This document shows, one piece after another, positions 36,001 through 42,000 of a DNA stretch of 64,000 nucleotides. Position numbers: made by a program. This DNA comes from Candidatus Bathyarchaeota archaeon. Lineage in GTDB: Archaea; Thermoproteota; Bathyarchaeia; TCS64. Location of the stretch: positions 96,001 through 160,000 of the forward strand of contig JBDRQD010000015.1 in assembly GCA_043826455.1 (NCBI GenBank), in the 5' to 3' direction. Each line of letters begins with the position of its first letter. Position 1 is the first letter of the stretch.

Positions 36001-39000
36001 TTCCTGCCTGTACGGGGTCCCCGGAGAGGTATGCTCCAGCTGCGTAGATCTCCTCTCCGATTAGCAAGTAGTCGCATATGACGGCGAAGAAGGGTATCTG
36101 GTATCCTCTGGCCGTTCCAGCCAGTTGTATGGATCCGATCCTGTTGAAGGTCTCCGCGAAGAGCATGGACTCAGCGTAGAAGGGTCCGATCATTATGTTG
36201 GCTGCGGGTCTCTCCCTCTCCGCGATACCCTGAACAGCGGAGGCGTAGGCGAACTGCTCGCCAGACAGGTACCTTACCTGGTCCTCCGCGTGGAACTCCT
36301 CCGCCTTGCCAGCCTTCACATAGGCTTCCTTCATGAGCTCTGTAGCGATAGGCATGACCTGAGCCGCGTACACCGAGTAGATGAGATTCACGCCATAGTT
36401 GGCGCACAGCTCAGCTACATAGGCTAGGACTGCGAGTCCAGCCACTAGCTGTGGTGCCACAGTTTCCGTTAAGCTTCCTAGTCCAGTCGTAAAGTGCACA
36501 GGCCTGTTCATCTCGGCTGCTCTGCCTACCATCTCTGGCAGTGCATCCAGGCCCGTCAGTTTTCTGAATTGTAGTTTTTGTTTTTTGGCCATCTCCATAC
36601 CGCCCAGTATGAAGATCCAGATTAGTATCAGCATTCCTAACGCGAAAATTCTGCCCGTAATAAGTATTGATATTTCATATCACTCCTGTTTCATATGTGA
36701 ATGTATCTTGACCCCGAATTGATTTAATACTTACGTCTATATGGCGTAATTAAACGAGCTTTTCCCTCACACTTGATGGTTTTTAAATATGATTCATGAA
36801 CCGCTCTACCGTAATCAAACCAGCTGGCTCCGTTAAATAACACCCCCCATACTTGTAGTGTATGGTCGCCGACCAAGGAACTAGGATGCCTAGAAGGATC
36901 ATCTTCGCGGGAGCGAACATAGCCTTCGGGGTGTCTTTCATCGGCCTTGAGCTCCTGGGGCTCCTCTTCGGTGTCTCCCCAGCAGACCCAGAGCTGCAGG
37001 CAAACCTGAACCTGTTAATAGTTGGGATCAACCTGCTGGGCGGCTACGCCGGGGGCTACCTCGTGGCCAAGAACACCCAGGGAGATACGTTGCAGCAGGG
37101 GACACTGACAGGGGTTCTGGCTTACATTATCCAGCAGATAGTTCACGCCACTCTGTATGGGTTTGGCGCGGTGGGAAACGCGTTCACCACCCTGGCTCTC
37201 ATCGGAGGGGCCATGGCTGGGGCGGTTCTCCACGAATCACATATCAAGAGGCTGGCGAGGATCAGGGCCGCGGCTTCCCGGGCCGAGGAGGGAGAAAGCC
37301 CCGGTGGACCAGAGGGCTCCGAGGCTGGAACCGAAGAAGTGGCTGAAGGGGAGCCCGGGGAGAAGGGCGAGGCCCCGCCTGAGGGCTGAGTCCAGTAATA
37401 GGGGAATATTTTACACCCCTCAGCGGGTAGGGTATATATATTCTGGGTATTTTCCTTAATGGAAACCCGAGGTGAAGCCATGCCCGAACCCAAGACTCTT
37501 GTGACCTCCGCCCTCATCTACGCCAACGGCCCCGTACACATAGGCCACATGTTGGAGAATATTCAGACGGATATCTATGTACGGTCGCAGAGGATTCGCG
37601 GCCGAGACATCATTTACTGTGGGGCTGAAGACACTCATGGTGCCCCCATAGAGATCAACGCCGCCAAGCAGGGTGTGACGCCCGAGGATTTCATCGACCA
37701 CTGGAAGCGGGAGCACAAGCGTGACTACGACGACTACCTGATCAGCTTCGACAGCTACTACTCAACTAACAGCCCGGAGAACCAGCACTACACGGAGCTC
37801 ATATTCAGGCGGCTCCAGGAGAGGGGGCACATCTACACCAAGGAGATGGAGCTCACCTTCTGTGAGCACTGCGAGAGGTACCTGCCGGATCGCTACGTGA
37901 AGGGCGCGTGCCCCAAGTGCGGCGCCCAGGACCAGTACGGGGACGTCTGCGAGAAGTGTAACAGCACTTACAGCACCACGGACCTGGTGAACCCCTACTG
38001 CAGCATCTGCGGGAACCCGCCTGTGCGCCGGAACAGCCTCCACTACTTCTTCAAGCTCAGCGAGTTCAGCGGCTGGCTGGAGAACTGGCTCAACACCAAC
38101 CAGAGCCTCCAGCCTGAGATCAGGAACCAGATACTGACCTGGGTCAGGGAGGGTCTCCAGGACTGGTGCATCAGCAGGGACGGCCCCTACTTCGGCTTCA
38201 GGATACCCGGGGAGGATAACAAGTACTTCTACGTGTGGCTGGACGCACCCATAGGCTACATAGCCAGCACCGCCAACTACTGCAGGGATAAGGGCTGCAC
38301 GGCTGACGACTACTGGCAGTCGGGGGACAGCAGGATCATTCACTTCATAGGCAAGGACATCATATACTTCCACCTCCTATTCTGGCCCGCCGTCCTCCAC
38401 GGCGCCGGGCTCCACGTGCCCGACAACGTGGTGGTCCACGGGTTCCTGACGGTGAACGGGGAGAAGATGAGCAAGAGCCGGGGCACCTTCCTCACAGCTG
38501 AGGAGTTCAAGGACTATGTGGACCCGGAGCTCACCCGATACTACTACGCCGCGAACCTCACCCACACCATGACCGACATCGACCTGGACCTGGTGAACCT
38601 GGAGAACAGGATCAACAACGAACTGGTATCCAACCTGGCCAACCTCTTCTACAGGGTCCTCAGCTTCCTCAACAAGTACTACGACAGCGAGACCACCACC
38701 ACGCTGGACGGTGGTCTCCTGGACGAGGTGAGGGCCAAGTGCGAGTCGGTGGGCCGCCATTACGACAACTACGACTTCAGGGACGCGGTCCGGGAGATGC
38801 TTGAGATCAGCAGCATGGGCAACAAGTATTTCCAGGACAACGCGCCGTGGGAGATGGTTAAATCCGATAAGGGTCGCGGCCAGAGGGTGCTCACGGACTG
38901 CGTCAACATCGTCAAGAACCTAACCCTTCTGATAAAACCCATCATGCCCCTGTTCGTGGAGAAGATGGAGAAGCAGCTCAACGTGCAGGCCATGGACTGG

Positions 39001-42000
39001 AGCCACATCGGAGAAGTGTTGGAGAATCACAGAATTGGGAAAGCCAGGATAGTCCTCAAGAAGATAGAGCCCATAGTGCTGAAGGCCAGGGACGAGGCCC
39101 CAGCAGAGCGTGAAGTCGAGTTCAGCATCGACGACAAGCTCGCCAAGATAGGCGTGGACGTGAAGCTGGCCATAATCCAAGGCGTAGGCATCAGGAAGAG
39201 CGAAGGCGAGCTGGAGAAGCTGAAGAAGCAGGCCGAGGAGAAGATCAGAGCCCTCCGAGTAGACGGTGATCCCATCATAGAGGGCTACAGGGAGGTGTAC
39301 CGGAGGTTCAAGGCCGACGAGGAGCCCCCCATGGCTCACCTGATAAAGCTCGTCAAGGAGAGGGGGATGCTCCCCAACATCAACACCGTCGTGGACGCCT
39401 ACAACATCATCTCAGCCACACGTCGCGTCAGCGTCGGGGTCCACGACCTGGACAAGGTGGTGGGCGGCGTCCGCCTCAAGGTGACCCAGGGCGATGAGGC
39501 CTATGTGCCCCTGGGCGAGACGGAGCCCGTGAAGGTACGGCCCGGGGCATTCGCCATGGTGGACCAGGAGCACGTCCTCTGCTACCTGGACGCCAAGCAG
39601 GGCCAGCACACCAAGATAGGGTACGACACCAGGAACCTGCTGGTCTACGTGCAGGGCAACGCCGAGACCAGCGGCACGTACCTGGATGCGGCCCTCCGCG
39701 AGATATGCGACCTCATCGTAAGGTTCAACGGCGGCAGCTACAGGCTGCTGAACCCCACGGACCTGTCGGCCCTCAACCTGAAAGTGGCCAAGGTTACGGA
39801 GGTCCTGGACCACCCGGGCGCCGACAAACTGTACATCATCAAGGTCGACCTGGGCTCGGAGAAGAGGCAGCTATGCGCCGGCCTCAAACCCTACTACCCG
39901 GACAGGAATGATCTTCTGGGGAAGCATCTTGTGGTCCTCACCAACCTTCAGCCCGCCAAGCTCAGGGGCGAGCTGAGCGAGGGCATGCTTCTGGCCGGGG
40001 ACGACGGCAAGGACGTGGGCGTACTGAGCCCCCAGAAATCCAAGCCAGGCGACCAGGTGTACGTCGGCGACATAAGGGATTACAAGGAAGACCTGATCAG
40101 CTTCGACCATTTCATGAAGTACAGGCTGGAGGCCGTGGACGGCAGAGCCTACATGGAGGGCCTGCCCCTGCACACGGACTCCGAGGAGATAAGGCTGGAG
40201 AAGGTGGCGAACGGCAGGATAAGGTAGGCTCAGAGGGCCTTCTTCTCCGCCTCGCCTATGGACTTGTCCAGCAGGGCCACGATCTCGTCTATCTGCTTCT
40301 TGTCCACGATGAGGGGCGGGGCCACCTGGATGTGGTCGCCCCTGACGCCGTCTACGGTGCCCGAGCCTGGGTAGACTAGGAGCCCGTTCTCGAAGCACCT
40401 GTCCACGACTCTGCCGTTGTACCTGTGCTTGGGGTCGAAGGGCTCCTTGGTATCCTTGTCCTTGACGAACTCGATGCCGGCGAAGACGCCCATGCCCCGG
40501 ATGTTGCCCACGGAGGGGTGGTCGTAGAGGTCGGCAAGCTTCCTGTGGAGGTACTTGCCGTTCTCGGCTGAACGCTCCACAAGCCTGTGCTTCACCGTGT
40601 ATTCCAGTACAGCGGCCCCGGCCGCGCAGACCACCGGGTGGCTGCCGTAGGTGTGGCCGTGGGCGAAGGGCTCACCGAAGGCCTCGTAGACCCTGTCGCT
40701 GGCTATGGTGGCGCCCAGGGGCAGGTAGCCGCCGGCCAGGCCCTTGGCCGTGGCGATTATGTCCGGTTTGACGCCCCAGTGGTCCAGGCCCCATTTTTTG
40801 CCGGTGCGGCCCAGGCCTGTCATCACCTCGTCGGCGATGAATAGGACGCCGTGTCTGTCGCAGGTCTCCCGGATGAGCTGGAAGTAGCCCTCCGGGGCGG
40901 GGACGGTGCCCAGGGTGGCGCCCACCACGGGTTCCGCGATGAAGGCTGAGACGTGCTCGGGGCCCTGGGCCCTGATCTCGGTGTCCAGGGCCCTGGCGCA
41001 GTCCAGGTCGCATGTGTCCCTGGTCTTCCCGTAGGGGCACCTGTAGCAGTAGGCCGGGGGTATGTGGGGGAAGTCTATGAGCATGGGGACGTAGCGGCGG
41101 CGGCGAGCGATGTTGCCGCTCATGCTGAGGCTGCCCAGGGTGTTGCCGTGGTAGCTCTGCCACCTGGCCACCACCTTGTAGCGCTTGGGCTCGTTGGTGA
41201 GCAGATAGTACTGGCGCGCCATCTTGGCCGCCGCCTCCGTGGCCTCGGAGCCCCCGCTGCAGAAGTAGACGTGGCCCAGGCCCTCTGGGGCGAAGGCCGC
41301 AAGCCTGTCGGCGCACTCCTTCACGGACCTGGTGATGAAGTGGCTGCTGTGGACGTAGCTCACCTCGTCCATCTGGCGCTTGACGGCGTCCGTCACCTCC
41401 TTGACGCCGTGGCCTATGTTTACGCATATGGGGCCGCTGCTGCCGTCGATGTACCTGCGGCCGTCCCGGTCCCAGAGGTATATGCCCTCGCCTTTCACCA
41501 TCTCGTAGAGGTGGTCGGCTCCCCTGGAGAATACGTGTTGACTTGACATGGAGTAGACTCGGGGTGGGGGGACTTAACGGTAGCGACTGCGGAAAAATGA
41601 AAAGCGTGGTCGCCTCTACTTCATGGGATACTTTATGATTGAAGGAGTCAAGCGCGTAGCCCTCGTGGGCTCAGGCCTCATAGGCCAGGGCTGGGCGGCC
41701 CTCTTCGCCCTCAACGGTTACAGCGTCGTGATGCAGGACCTGTCAGAGGAGAGGCTGGGGGAAGCCAAAGCTAGGGCTGTCCACCACATCGGCACTCTGG
41801 TTGACGCGGGTCTGGGTAAGAACGCTAGGGCGGCGGCTAAGCGGCTGGAGACCACCACGAGCCTGGGGGAGGCGCTGGAGGGCGCCGACTACGTACAGGA
41901 GTCAGTCTTTGAGAGTCTGAGCGTCAAGTGTCCGCTGTACGCCGAGATGGATAGGCTCGCTCCCAGGGACGTTGTGCTCGCTAGCAGTACAAGCGGTCTG

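What a model noticed while it worked through the whole genome (the two positions that open the first line are those of the whole stretch)
37480..40227. Methionyl-tRNA synthetase carrying a PheRS-beta-type B3/B4 editing domain
The only full-length MetRS of the genome (g00528, 915 aa) has a B3/B4 domain, the fold of the PheRS-beta editing site and of the free-standing canavanyl-tRNA deacylase CtdA, inserted between its anticodon-binding domain and the C-terminal tRNA_bind domain; two free-standing B3_4 proteins (g00841, g02082) are also encoded. I read the insert as a cis-acting aminoacyl-tRNA deacylase that clears a methionine look-alike (homocysteine-, norleucine-, ethionine- or selenomethionine-type) from tRNA-Met. 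MetRS is known to lack a separate editing domain, so this would be a new proofreading solution and a clue to the uncharacterised archaeal CtdA-2 clade.
Evidence so far: pfam.tsv: tRNA-synt_1g 7-394 (1e-146), Anticodon_3 409-522, B3_4 619-726 (3.1e-16), tRNA_bind 767-857 (1.6e-26); Swiss-Prot MetRS hits cover only residues 5-550. Search with residues 545-765: 38 clusters, all with PF03483 and MetRS families (one a 552-aa fragment), 646-931 aa, from Bathyarchaeia/Thermoproteota/'archaeon' bins, 39-86% identity in the insert. phmmer of the insert against PDB: CtdA 9f7e 1.6e-9, a B3/4 protein 9mkl 1e-4, PheRS beta 4p71 3e-3. g00841 and g02082: B3_4 3e-29. Paper search 'methionyl-tRNA synthetase'+'B3 B4'+'editing': 0 papers; the 2025 CtdA family paper PMC12449066 (passages, call 169) has no occurrence of MetRS, methionyl, fused or fusion and says the archaeal Ct [...]
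(Added by a program. Inside this text positions count along the whole contig: contig position 96,001 is position 1 of the stretch shown here. "Call 12" and the like, gene names such as g00115 and contig names such as C1 are that model's own, and its searches are not shown. The text may have been shortened before it was handed on; [...] marks where a part breaks off. The agent that wrote the report below was given it as the finding of a first reader that could run no searches.)

Follow-up and report, generated by a model that had tools for sequence, protein, structure and literature searches.

The report
MetRS carrying a CtdA-like deacylase module
One of this archaeon's two methionine-charging enzymes has a complete copy of a tRNA-proofreading enzyme built into it, which suggests an error-correction step that methionine charging is not known to have.

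Summary
Window 37480-40227 (+) encodes a 915-aa MetRS with intact HIGH/KMSKS motifs and zinc knuckles. A complete CtdA-type B3/B4 module (residues ~546-761) sits between the anticodon-binding domain and the usual archaeal C-terminal tRNA_bind domain. The module folds with pLDDT 95.8 and matches the CtdA crystal structures over their whole length (TM 0.81-0.85), against about 0.6 for PheRS-beta.

The Tyr-Asn pair that CtdA needs at the ester bond is invariant in all 73 MetRS-fused modules examined. CtdA's two deep-pocket glutamates are replaced by His and Gln. Related modules fused to LysRS of both classes keep acidic residues there, so pocket chemistry follows the partner's amino acid. I read the module as a cis-acting deacylase for an uncharged methionine look-alike on tRNA-Met (about 0.55). 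No activity or substrate has been shown.

- This is not the only MetRS. A short canonical MetRS is cut off at a contig end, and congeners carry both forms.
- The long form is a xenologue, 36-37% identical to the short form and 60% to a Methanosarcinales fused MetRS.

This scan has already noted similar fusions on other genomes.

The parts
37480..40227 (+). Whole gene: long MetRS paralogue, 915 aa plus stop
   Evidence: ORF and translation; Pfam and NCBIfam
37498..38661 (+). MetRS catalytic domain (residues 7-394) with HIGH at 20, KMSKS at 329 and four CxxC zinc knuckles at 128-177. The Met-pocket residues W253, A256, Y260 and H298 are invariant in 55 fused MetRS.
38704..39045 (+). MetRS anticodon-binding domain (Anticodon_3, residues 409-522)
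39046..39114 (+). Linker, residues ~523-545. Confidence is low in the full-length model (pLDDT below 50 at residues 537-541).
39115..39762 (+). Complete CtdA-type B3/B4 module (residues 546-761). Ester-bond pair Y641/N642 (nt 39400-39405); pocket residues G653, H655, D656, C701, K706, Q707, Y723, Q725.
   Evidence: Profile envelope; AF2 pLDDT 95.8; Foldseek to CtdA 9mkl/9f7e TM 0.81-0.85; residue mapping from the alignment
39778..40050 (+). tRNA_bind (Trbp111-like OB fold, residues 767-857), the usual C-terminal domain of long archaeal MetRS
   Evidence: PDB 1mkh/1rqg MetRS C-terminal domain at 1e-26 to 3e-25
40051..40224 (+). C-terminal extension of ~58 aa, all beta strands in the model. Its sequence matches EMAP-II/p43-type proteins beyond the OB fold.

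Best explanation
The gene encodes a working methionyl-tRNA synthetase. A complete CtdA-type aminoacyl-tRNA deacylase has been inserted on a flexible linker between its anticodon-binding domain and its C-terminal tRNA-binding domain.

Proposed mechanism (inferred): the MetRS body and the OB-fold tail hold tRNA-Met by its anticodon and its elbow/acceptor region. After transfer, the 3' CCA end can swing from the synthetic site into the B3/B4 pocket. There the invariant Tyr641-Asn642 pair positions the ester bond and a water molecule, as proposed for CtdA and bacterial PheRS. A narrow pocket lined by His655, Cys701, Gln707 and Gln725 accepts an uncharged, straight-chain methionine look-alike, which is hydrolysed, and rejects methionine.

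In this Bathyarchaeia genus the enzyme is a horizontally acquired second MetRS beside a short canonical one. It may serve as the analogue-tolerant, high-fidelity copy. In DPANN archaea, a Methanosarcinales genome and a CPR bacterium the fused form is the only MetRS found.

Shown: architecture, fold, conservation, co-variation and distribution. Inferred: catalysis, action in cis, and the kind of substrate.
For: 1. The synthetase is intact. HIGH, KMSKS and the zinc knuckles are present. W253, A256, Y260 and H298 are invariant across 55 fused MetRS. NCBIfam metG scores are above cut-off. In 5 of 5 genomes of other lineages checked, the fused gene is the only MetRS found.

2. The module is a whole CtdA-type fold: pLDDT 95.8; Foldseek 9mkl/9f7e E 1.6e-17 to 2.6e-16 and TM 0.81-0.85 over ~224 of 226-231 residues, against TM ~0.6 for PheRS-beta.

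3. [quoted passage not shown] By the alignment these residues are Y641, N642, H655 and Q725 here.
 - Y641 and N642 are kept in 73 of 73 MetRS-fused modules. This is the 74 labelled MetRS minus L037, which one search showed to be a class II synthetase.
 - H655 is kept in 67/73, Q707 in 71/73 and Q725 in 68/73. The four-site signature H-C-Q-Q is found in 62/73.

4. The pocket follows the partner. 4 of 4 class I LysRS fusions (Anaerolineae), 1 class II LysRS fusion (P0176, lysS_bact 528 bits, cut-off 427.6) and 1 class II D/K/N fusion (L037) all have Asp at 707 and 725.

5. Modules on very different MetRS cores resemble each other more than the cores do. For P0029-P0038 the core is 26-31% identical to P0001 and the module 38-50%.

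6. The same family is fused to YbaK-type tRNA_edit domains (P0052, P0177).

7. Within the genus the module is under constraint comparable to the core (55-86% against 71-92%).

8. A precedent exists for editing tRNA-Met after transfer. The AlaX-family AlfB hydrolyses 3-hydroxymethionyl-tRNA-Met (PMC13149037, passages).
Against: No biochemical data exist for any member of the H-C-Q-Q subtype.

The two glutamates individually required in CtdA are absent here. If they are catalytic rather than substrate-binding, the module could be inactive.

The full-length model has pTM 0.63 and a low-confidence linker. I could not obtain coordinates, so the geometry between the two active sites and the lining of the pocket rest on a sequence alignment to CtdA, not on a measured structure.

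The 73 fused sequences are not independent; many come from one genus.

MetRS keeps D51, the equivalent of the thiol-subsite Asp used for pre-transfer homocysteine editing (nearly invariant). Homocysteine, the classic MetRS problem, is therefore probably already handled, and the real substrate is unknown.

B3/4 domains with non-editing roles exist: LRRC47 on the 40S ribosome appears among the fold hits.

The gene neighbourhood gives no hint. A class III aminotransferase lies convergently downstream, and its synteny with the MetRS is seen only within the genus.
Confidence: 0.55

Rival explanations
1. The module no longer hydrolyses anything. It is a tRNA-binding or positioning domain that, together with the OB-fold tail, raises affinity for tRNA-Met or helps hand it over.
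For: CtdA's E118 and E191, each required for activity, are His and Gln here. The module sits next to another tRNA-binding appendix. 9 of 38 clusters carry the module in place of tRNA_bind at the C-terminus, as if one can replace the other. Non-catalytic B3/4 proteins exist (LRRC47).
Against: A mere binding domain would not need the ester-bond pair Tyr-Asn invariant in 73/73, nor the deep-pocket residues kept in 62-71 of 73. It also would not need pocket charge to switch with the partner's amino acid on both LysRS classes. Free-standing relatives with the same signature are common: 79 of 118 in a hit list seeded with this insert.
Confidence: 0.15
2. The module is an active deacylase that works in trans on aminoacyl-tRNAs other than tRNA-Met, for example a general or Arg/Lys-analogue deacylase. 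MetRS is only a carrier or co-expression partner.
For: CtdA and the many free-standing relatives act in trans. The linker is flexible. The family is also found fused to an unrelated oxidoreductase (P0040).
Against: The H-C-Q-Q subtype recurs on MetRS cores that share only 24-31% identity. The acidic subtype recurs on LysRS of both classes. Partner and pocket are therefore matched, which a random carrier would not give. The neutral pocket does not suit Arg or Lys analogues.
Confidence: 0.12
3. The module removes methionine itself from tRNAs that MetRS has wrongly methionylated (control of mismethionylation), rather than removing an analogue from tRNA-Met.
For: MetRS mismethionylates non-cognate tRNAs in several organisms (review PMC7373986, passages). 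A neutral, long pocket could fit methionine.
Against: The module would have to spare Met-tRNA-Met while being tethered to the enzyme that makes it. Known B3/B4 and CtdA enzymes choose by the aminoacyl moiety. Nothing in the data points to discrimination by the tRNA body.
Confidence: 0.05
4. The fusion is an artefact of assembly or gene calling: separate MetRS, B3/4 and tRNA_bind genes wrongly joined.
For: The genome is a bin with 7.2% contamination. Short 'MetRS beta chain' fragments (B3_4 + tRNA_bind, 259-432 aa) exist on contigs under 3 kb.
Against: A single uninterrupted frame lies on a 297-kb contig. The same architecture is found in 38 clusters, in 14 of 17 sampled congeners and in five other lineages. 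The short fragments lie on very short contigs and are most simply truncated copies.
Confidence: 0.01

Closest known systems
CtdA, free-standing canavanyl-tRNA-Arg deacylase (PDB 9f7e, 9mkl; PMC10018355 seen in search listing only; PMC12449066 and PMC12268091 read in sections and passages)
   Same: Same fold over the whole length, including the CtdA-specific helical insert (TM 0.81-0.85). The Tyr-Asn pair, G116, C166 and Q173 equivalents are kept.
   Different: About 21% identity. The module is built into a synthetase rather than free-standing. The deep-pocket E118 and E191 are His and Gln, so canavanine is an unlikely substrate. The partner is tRNA-Met rather than tRNA-Arg.
B3/B4 editing domain of PheRS beta subunit (e.g. 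6oz5, 4p71, 1pys)
   Same: A cis-acting editing module of the same superfold inside a synthetase. The Asn next to the ester bond is shared. PheRS-beta also carries a tRNA_bind (B1) domain.
   Different: The structural match is weaker (TM ~0.6; 12-15% identity). The indels differ. The domain order is reversed here (B3/4 before tRNA_bind). The host is class I MetRS, not class II PheRS.
AlfB, AlaX-family deacylase for 3-hydroxymethionyl-tRNA-Met (PMC13149037, passages and outline)
   Same: It shows that tRNA-Met charged with a methionine analogue is a real target for post-transfer editing.
   Different: Unrelated fold (AlaX). It is free-standing, bacterial, and linked to a biosynthetic gene cluster.
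Long archaeal MetRS with C-terminal Trbp111-like domain (Pyrococcus abyssi 1rqg/1mkh)
   Same: The core plus the C-terminal OB-fold tail (1e-26 to 3e-25 for the tail).
   Different: It has no module between the anticodon-binding domain and the tail, and it lacks the ~58-aa extension.
MetRS pre-transfer editing of homocysteine in the synthetic site (review PMC7373986, passages)
   Same: Also proofreading by MetRS. The Asp of the thiol subsite (D51 here) is kept.
   Different: It acts before transfer, at the synthetic site, by cyclisation. No separate domain is involved.

Membership tests
Methionyl-tRNA synthetase (class I, metG) | Curated family models scored above their cut-offs | tested here: met
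   PRK00133 795.9 bits (cut-off 587); TIGR00398 558.3 bits (cut-off 336.35); PF09334 7.9e-146
Methionyl-tRNA synthetase (class I, metG) | HIGH and KMSKS signature motifs and conserved methionine-pocket residues | tested here: met
   HIGH at 20 and KMSKS at 329. W253, A256, Y260 and H298 are invariant in 55 fused MetRS. Their equivalence to the E. coli pocket residues is recalled, not tested.
Methionyl-tRNA synthetase (class I, metG) | Methionylation of tRNA-Met | not testable with these tools
   Indirect only: the fused form is the sole MetRS found in 5 of 5 genomes of other lineages.
CtdA-type B3/4 deacylases (PF03483 free-standing family) | B3/4 profile match above cut-off, and the CtdA fold including its specific helical insert | tested here: met
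   PF03483 58 bits (cut-off 29.3). Foldseek TM 0.81-0.85 to 9mkl/9f7e over ~224 columns.
CtdA-type B3/4 deacylases (PF03483 free-standing family) | Ester-bond residues Y104/N105 | tested here: met
   Y641/N642, kept in 73/73 MetRS-fused modules
CtdA proper (canavanyl-tRNA-Arg deacylase, CtdA-1) | [quoted passage not shown] | tested here: not met
   E118 is H655 and E191 is Q725. C166 (C701) and Q173 (Q707) are kept. The module is therefore not a canavanine enzyme by this criterion.
CtdA-2 clade (Maldonado et al. 2025) | C166 missing (bacterial) or replaced by another residue (archaeal), per PMC12449066 section 29 | tested here: not met
   The insert keeps Cys at this position (62 of 73 fused modules have the H-C-Q-Q signature). 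The genome's two free-standing proteins have Ala/Thr there and would fit. The paper's own alignment (Fig. S14) was not seen, so clade membership was not tested directly.
PheRS-beta B3/B4 editing domain | Context in PheRS-beta (B1-B8 domains) and PheRS-type indels and pocket residues | tested here: not met
   The host is MetRS. The structural match is weaker (TM ~0.6). phmmer gives 3.3e-3.
Aminoacyl-tRNA deacylase (function) | Hydrolysis of a mischarged tRNA | not testable with these tools
   Needs enzyme assays.

The most novel reading that the evidence does not exclude
The H-C-Q-Q subtype, both fused and free-standing, is a previously unrecognised family of tRNA-Met-specific post-transfer editing enzymes. 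More broadly, CtdA-like B3/4 modules would form a plug-in proofreading toolkit whose deep-pocket residues are tuned to the partner: neutral His/Gln/Gln on MetRS, acidic Asp/Asp on both classes of LysRS, Glu/Glu for canavanine on tRNA-Arg. MetRS and class I LysRS, textbook examples of synthetases without a post-transfer editing domain, would then have one in many DPANN, CPR, Chloroflexota and some Bathyarchaeia lineages.
Probability: 0.4. Interest if true: 0.85.

Novelty: new variant of a known kind. Interest (0 to 1): 0.7.

Why it matters
MetRS is taught as a synthetase that proofreads only in its synthetic site. Methionine analogues such as norleucine and ethionine are classic cases of unedited misincorporation (this last point is recalled, not taken from a call).

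A conserved, dedicated hydrolytic module on MetRS would add a new editing pathway. It would give a handle on which natural methionine look-alikes threaten anaerobic and symbiotic microbes. It would also assign a testable function to a large group of uncharacterised free-standing B3/4 proteins.

The co-variation of pocket charge with the fused synthetase offers a simple rule for predicting the substrates of other members. The fused enzymes could also be useful parts for genetic-code engineering where methionine surrogates are used.

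Tried and rejected
1. Literature. Other searches found no paper on a MetRS-B3/4 fusion: 'canavanyl-tRNA', 'PF03483', CtdA/MetRS/deacylase, 'MetRS' + 'PheRS editing domain'. 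Supplementary Table S2 of PMC12449066 has 0 occurrences of 'methionine' and 16 of 'ligase', all Phe-tRNA or unnamed tRNA ligases.

2. Gene neighbourhood. The flanking genes are DUF6754, a 175-aa ORF without family, a class III aminotransferase, a 3-hydroxyacyl-CoA dehydrogenase, a CoA transferase and an M81 peptidase. Synteny is seen only among close relatives. None suggests a substrate.

3. No MetRS gene was found in the flanks of free-standing relatives (L023, L024, L029 and the other such loci; 3 kb requested on each side, less where the contig ends).

4. I mislabelled L037 as MetRS. Its translation failed twice because of an in-frame stop. Pfam then showed a class II D/K/N synthetase. The counts in this report exclude it.

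I could not measure the distance between the synthetic site and the editing pocket, list the pocket-lining residues from the model, or dock analogues.

6. The domain tree (FastTree, midpoint root, 214 sequences) places MetRS-fused modules in about six places. Some 'free' neighbours are probably truncated fused genes on short contigs, so the number of independent fusions is not settled.

7. A look-up of earlier notes on this genome returned nothing.

Full report
**Observation.** The frame at window 37480-40227 (+) is open and gives a 915-aa protein. Pfam finds four domains:
- the MetRS catalytic domain (7-394, 7.9e-146)
- the MetRS anticodon-binding domain (409-522)
- a B3_4 domain (619-726; 58 bits against a cut-off of 29.3)
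- a tRNA_bind domain (767-857, 4.8e-26)

NCBIfam's methionine--tRNA ligase models score far above their cut-offs, but only over residues 4-543. HIGH (20), KMSKS (329) and four CxxC knuckles are present. So is the set of 38 clusters of fused relatives.

**What the insert is.** I folded residues 545-766 with an alignment of 96 free-standing relatives. The model has mean pLDDT 95.8 and pTM 0.91. Foldseek against the PDB puts the two CtdA crystal structures first: E 1.6e-17 to 2.6e-16, TM 0.81-0.85, about 224 aligned columns of 226-231 residues. The PheRS-beta chains follow at TM about 0.6 and 12-15% identity. The insert is therefore a whole CtdA-type protein, including the helical insert that distinguishes CtdA from PheRS B3/B4 (PMC12449066, section 24). 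It is not a fragment of a PheRS-beta.

The C-terminal 150 residues match the standard C-terminal domain of Pyrococcus MetRS (1mkh, 1rqg; 1e-26 to 3e-25). Beyond the OB fold they match EMAP-II/p43-type proteins. The full-length model has pLDDT 91.7 but pTM 0.63, with a low-confidence linker at 537-541. The domains are well defined, but their mutual arrangement is not.

**Active-site residues.** Two papers define what matters in CtdA.
- PMC12268091 (passages): Y104 and N105 lie at the canavanyl-ribose junction. [quoted passage not shown] Y104F, N105D, E118Q and E191V each abolish activity.
- PMC12449066 (sections 24, 25, 27): the pocket is N105, G116, E118, C166, Q173 and I189. N105A, G116H/W and Q173G inactivate. 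C166 tunes specificity.

Counting along the HMMER alignment to 9f7e gives these equivalences:

| CtdA | This protein |
|---|---|
| Y104 / N105 | Y641 / N642 |
| G116 | G653 |
| E118 | H655 |
| C166 | C701 |
| Q173 | Q707 |
| I189 | Y723 |
| E191 | Q725 |

The pair at the ester bond and three of the pocket residues are kept. The two acidic residues that meet the charged end of canavanine are neutral here.

**Conservation and co-variation.** I cut out the module from every protein and locus in hand with a profile built from the alignment, and aligned 214 modules. Of the 74 that I had labelled MetRS-fused, one (L037) proved to be a class II D/K/N synthetase. Among the remaining 73:
- Y641, N642, D639 and D695: 73/73
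- H655: 67/73
- Q707: 71/73
- Q725: 68/73
- four-site signature H-C-Q-Q (655, 701, 707, 725): 62/73

These sequences are not independent, since many come from one genus. They do reach down to 26-31% identity in the module.

The related modules fused to other synthetases look different. Four class I LysRS fusions from Anaerolineae (lysS_arch 376 bits), one class II LysRS fusion (P0176; lysS_bact 528 bits against a cut-off of 427.6) and the class II fusion L037 all carry Asp at 707 and 725. A neutral pocket thus goes with MetRS. An acidic pocket goes with LysRS of two unrelated structural classes, and a Glu/Glu pocket goes with the arginine analogue canavanine. This is the strongest argument that the modules read the aminoacyl moiety, as editing domains do.

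A second argument comes from the short architecture (MetRS core plus module, no tRNA_bind; P0029-P0038). There the MetRS core is only 26-31% identical to this one, while the module is 38-50% identical. The same module subtype therefore sits on very different MetRS backbones.

A third argument is that two relatives are fused to YbaK-type tRNA_edit domains (P0052, P0177).

**Distribution.** A full scan of 1.84 billion representatives with the insert gave 1252 hits at E <= 1e-3, 410 at <= 1e-10 and 38 at <= 1e-30. Of the best 150, 30 are longer than 300 aa:
- 23 are MetRS fusions or fragments of them
- 2 are tRNA_edit fusions
- 1 is the class II LysRS fusion
- 1 is a GFO/IDH/MocA oxidoreductase fusion
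- 1 is B3_4 + tRNA_bind
- 2 carry only B3_4 with an N-terminal extension

In one genome per species, the closest loci (71-86%) are Bathyarchaeia. Fused MetRS also occurs in a Nanoarchaeota, a Methanosarcinales, two Woesearchaeota and a Shapirobacteria (CPR) genome. In all five of these genomes it is the only MetRS found.

**A second MetRS.** The own genome has a second MetRS start at the very beginning of contig C59 (9.4e-30). That contig is 48 kb with 58% GC, like the genome as a whole. The 91-aa fragment is 67-76% identical to the 561-576-aa MetRS of five congeners and 45% identical to the long form.

In 18 congeners searched for the MetRS family:
- G002, G011, G012, G017 and G018 clearly carry both a long form (839-938 aa open frame) and a short one (561-571 aa).
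- G001 and G003 have two matches, one of them cut by a contig end.
- Seven show only the long form (G006, G007, G008, G013, G014, G015, G016).
- One shows only the short form (G005).
- Three have a fragment or nothing.

The 12 relatives from other families of the order and class have only open frames of 458-697 aa, or no match. In an even draw of 201 genomes of the class (87 genera), the module at E <= 1e-25 was found in 14 of 17 congeners. Outside the genus it appeared only once, as a free-standing 212-aa protein.

The MetRS core of the long form is 60% identical to the Methanosarcinales fused enzyme and 54-56% to Nanoarchaeota and other fused enzymes. It is only 36-37% identical to the short MetRS of its own genus. 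The simplest reading is that the genus acquired the fused gene as a unit by horizontal transfer and often keeps its ancestral short MetRS.

**Mechanism.** I commit to a cis-acting post-transfer editing domain (0.55). The MetRS body and the OB-fold tail hold tRNA-Met. The CCA end shuttles from the synthetic site to the B3/B4 pocket across a flexible tether. Tyr641-Asn642 set up hydrolysis. The neutral His/Cys/Gln/Gln pocket selects an uncharged straight-chain look-alike and excludes methionine.

The substrate is unknown. The thiol-subsite Asp used for pre-transfer homocysteine editing (review PMC7373986, passages) is kept as D51. Homocysteine is therefore not the obvious need. A polar pocket end hints at a smaller or more polar analogue than methionine, but this is a guess.

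The rivals are scored in their own section: a non-catalytic tRNA-binding module, a trans-acting deacylase merely carried by MetRS, removal of methionine from wrong tRNAs, and an assembly artefact.

**Comparison with what is known, and novelty.**
- MetRS editing is described as residing in the catalytic site (PMC7373986).
- The CtdA papers do not mention MetRS, methionyl, fused or fusion.
- The list of CtdA-bearing organisms in Supplementary Table S2 contains no methionine--tRNA ligase.
- A 2026 paper shows an AlaX-family enzyme clearing 3-hydroxymethionyl-tRNA-Met in trans (PMC13149037). Editing of tRNA-Met as such now has a precedent, but with another fold and not as part of the synthetase.

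My searches found no paper on the fusion. The search tool cannot match 'B3/B4', and subscription journals are not covered, so absence from print is not established.

Earlier notes of this scan describe the same kind of MetRS fusion in bacteria and DPANN archaea, and TyrRS fusions in Chloroflexota. They are AI notes on other DNA, not independent evidence. What this window adds:
- the paralogue situation in a Bathyarchaeia genus
- the architecture with the module inserted before a retained tRNA_bind tail
- the rule that pocket chemistry follows the partner synthetase

I rate it a new variant of a known kind, with interest 0.7.

Noticed in passing
L006 1-275 (own genome, contig C59, first 275 bases, minus strand): The start of a second, short-type MetRS is cut off by the contig end. 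It is 67-76% identical to the ~565-aa MetRS of congeners. The rest of the gene is missing from the assembly.
   Followed up: yes
L031 56-1183, L032 58-1146, L036 61-1206: In three Anaerolineae genomes the class I LysRS-B3/4 fusion is immediately preceded by a class III aminotransferase (28-31% identical to the window's own). I scanned L031's, and it is an ornithine--oxo-acid transaminase (TIGR01885 494 bits, cut-off 378). Ornithine is a known LysRS near-cognate, so the acidic-pocket module might clear ornithyl-tRNA-Lys.
   Followed up: partly
L037 978-3626: An Aenigmatarchaeota class II (D/K/N) synthetase + B3/4 + tRNA_bind reading frame is interrupted by one in-frame stop inside the B3/4 module (at 3006-3008). 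It could be a pseudogene, a sequencing error or recoding.
   Followed up: partly
P0052 (387 aa), P0177 (379 aa): Proteins made of a YbaK-type tRNA_edit domain followed by a CtdA-like B3/4 module with the H-C-Q-Q signature. These would be two putative deacylases in one chain.
   Followed up: no
P0040 (563 aa); L023 2443-3654; L024 2608-3663: The closest representative hit to the insert (41% identity) is fused to a GFO/IDH/MocA oxidoreductase. Two Anaeromyxobacter proteins carry the module behind a 130-190-aa N-terminal extension with no Pfam family.
   Followed up: no
L017 (contig DATKWN010000042.1, labelled Krumholzibacteriaceae bacterium): This contig carries a fused MetRS 74% identical in the insert. 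It also has DUF6754, aminotransferase and dehydrogenase neighbours syntenic with this Bathyarchaeia window (80-91% identity). It is probably a mis-binned archaeal contig.
   Followed up: partly
window 40230-41549 (-), 36862-37389 (+): A class III aminotransferase (PRK07483-type, 519 bits) lies convergently just downstream of the MetRS. A 175-aa ORF without any family lies just upstream. Both are syntenic in congeners only.
   Followed up: partly
L001 1444-2109 (-), L002 1300-2016 (+) (own genome, contigs C21 and C48): The two free-standing B3/4 proteins of the genome have Phe at 655, Ala/Thr at 701 and Asp at 707, close to the LysRS-type acidic pocket. They fall in a different clade from the MetRS insert. 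One lies just downstream of, and overlapping, a 379-aa ORF of unknown family, with a 180-aa ORF (also not identified) on its other side.
   Followed up: partly
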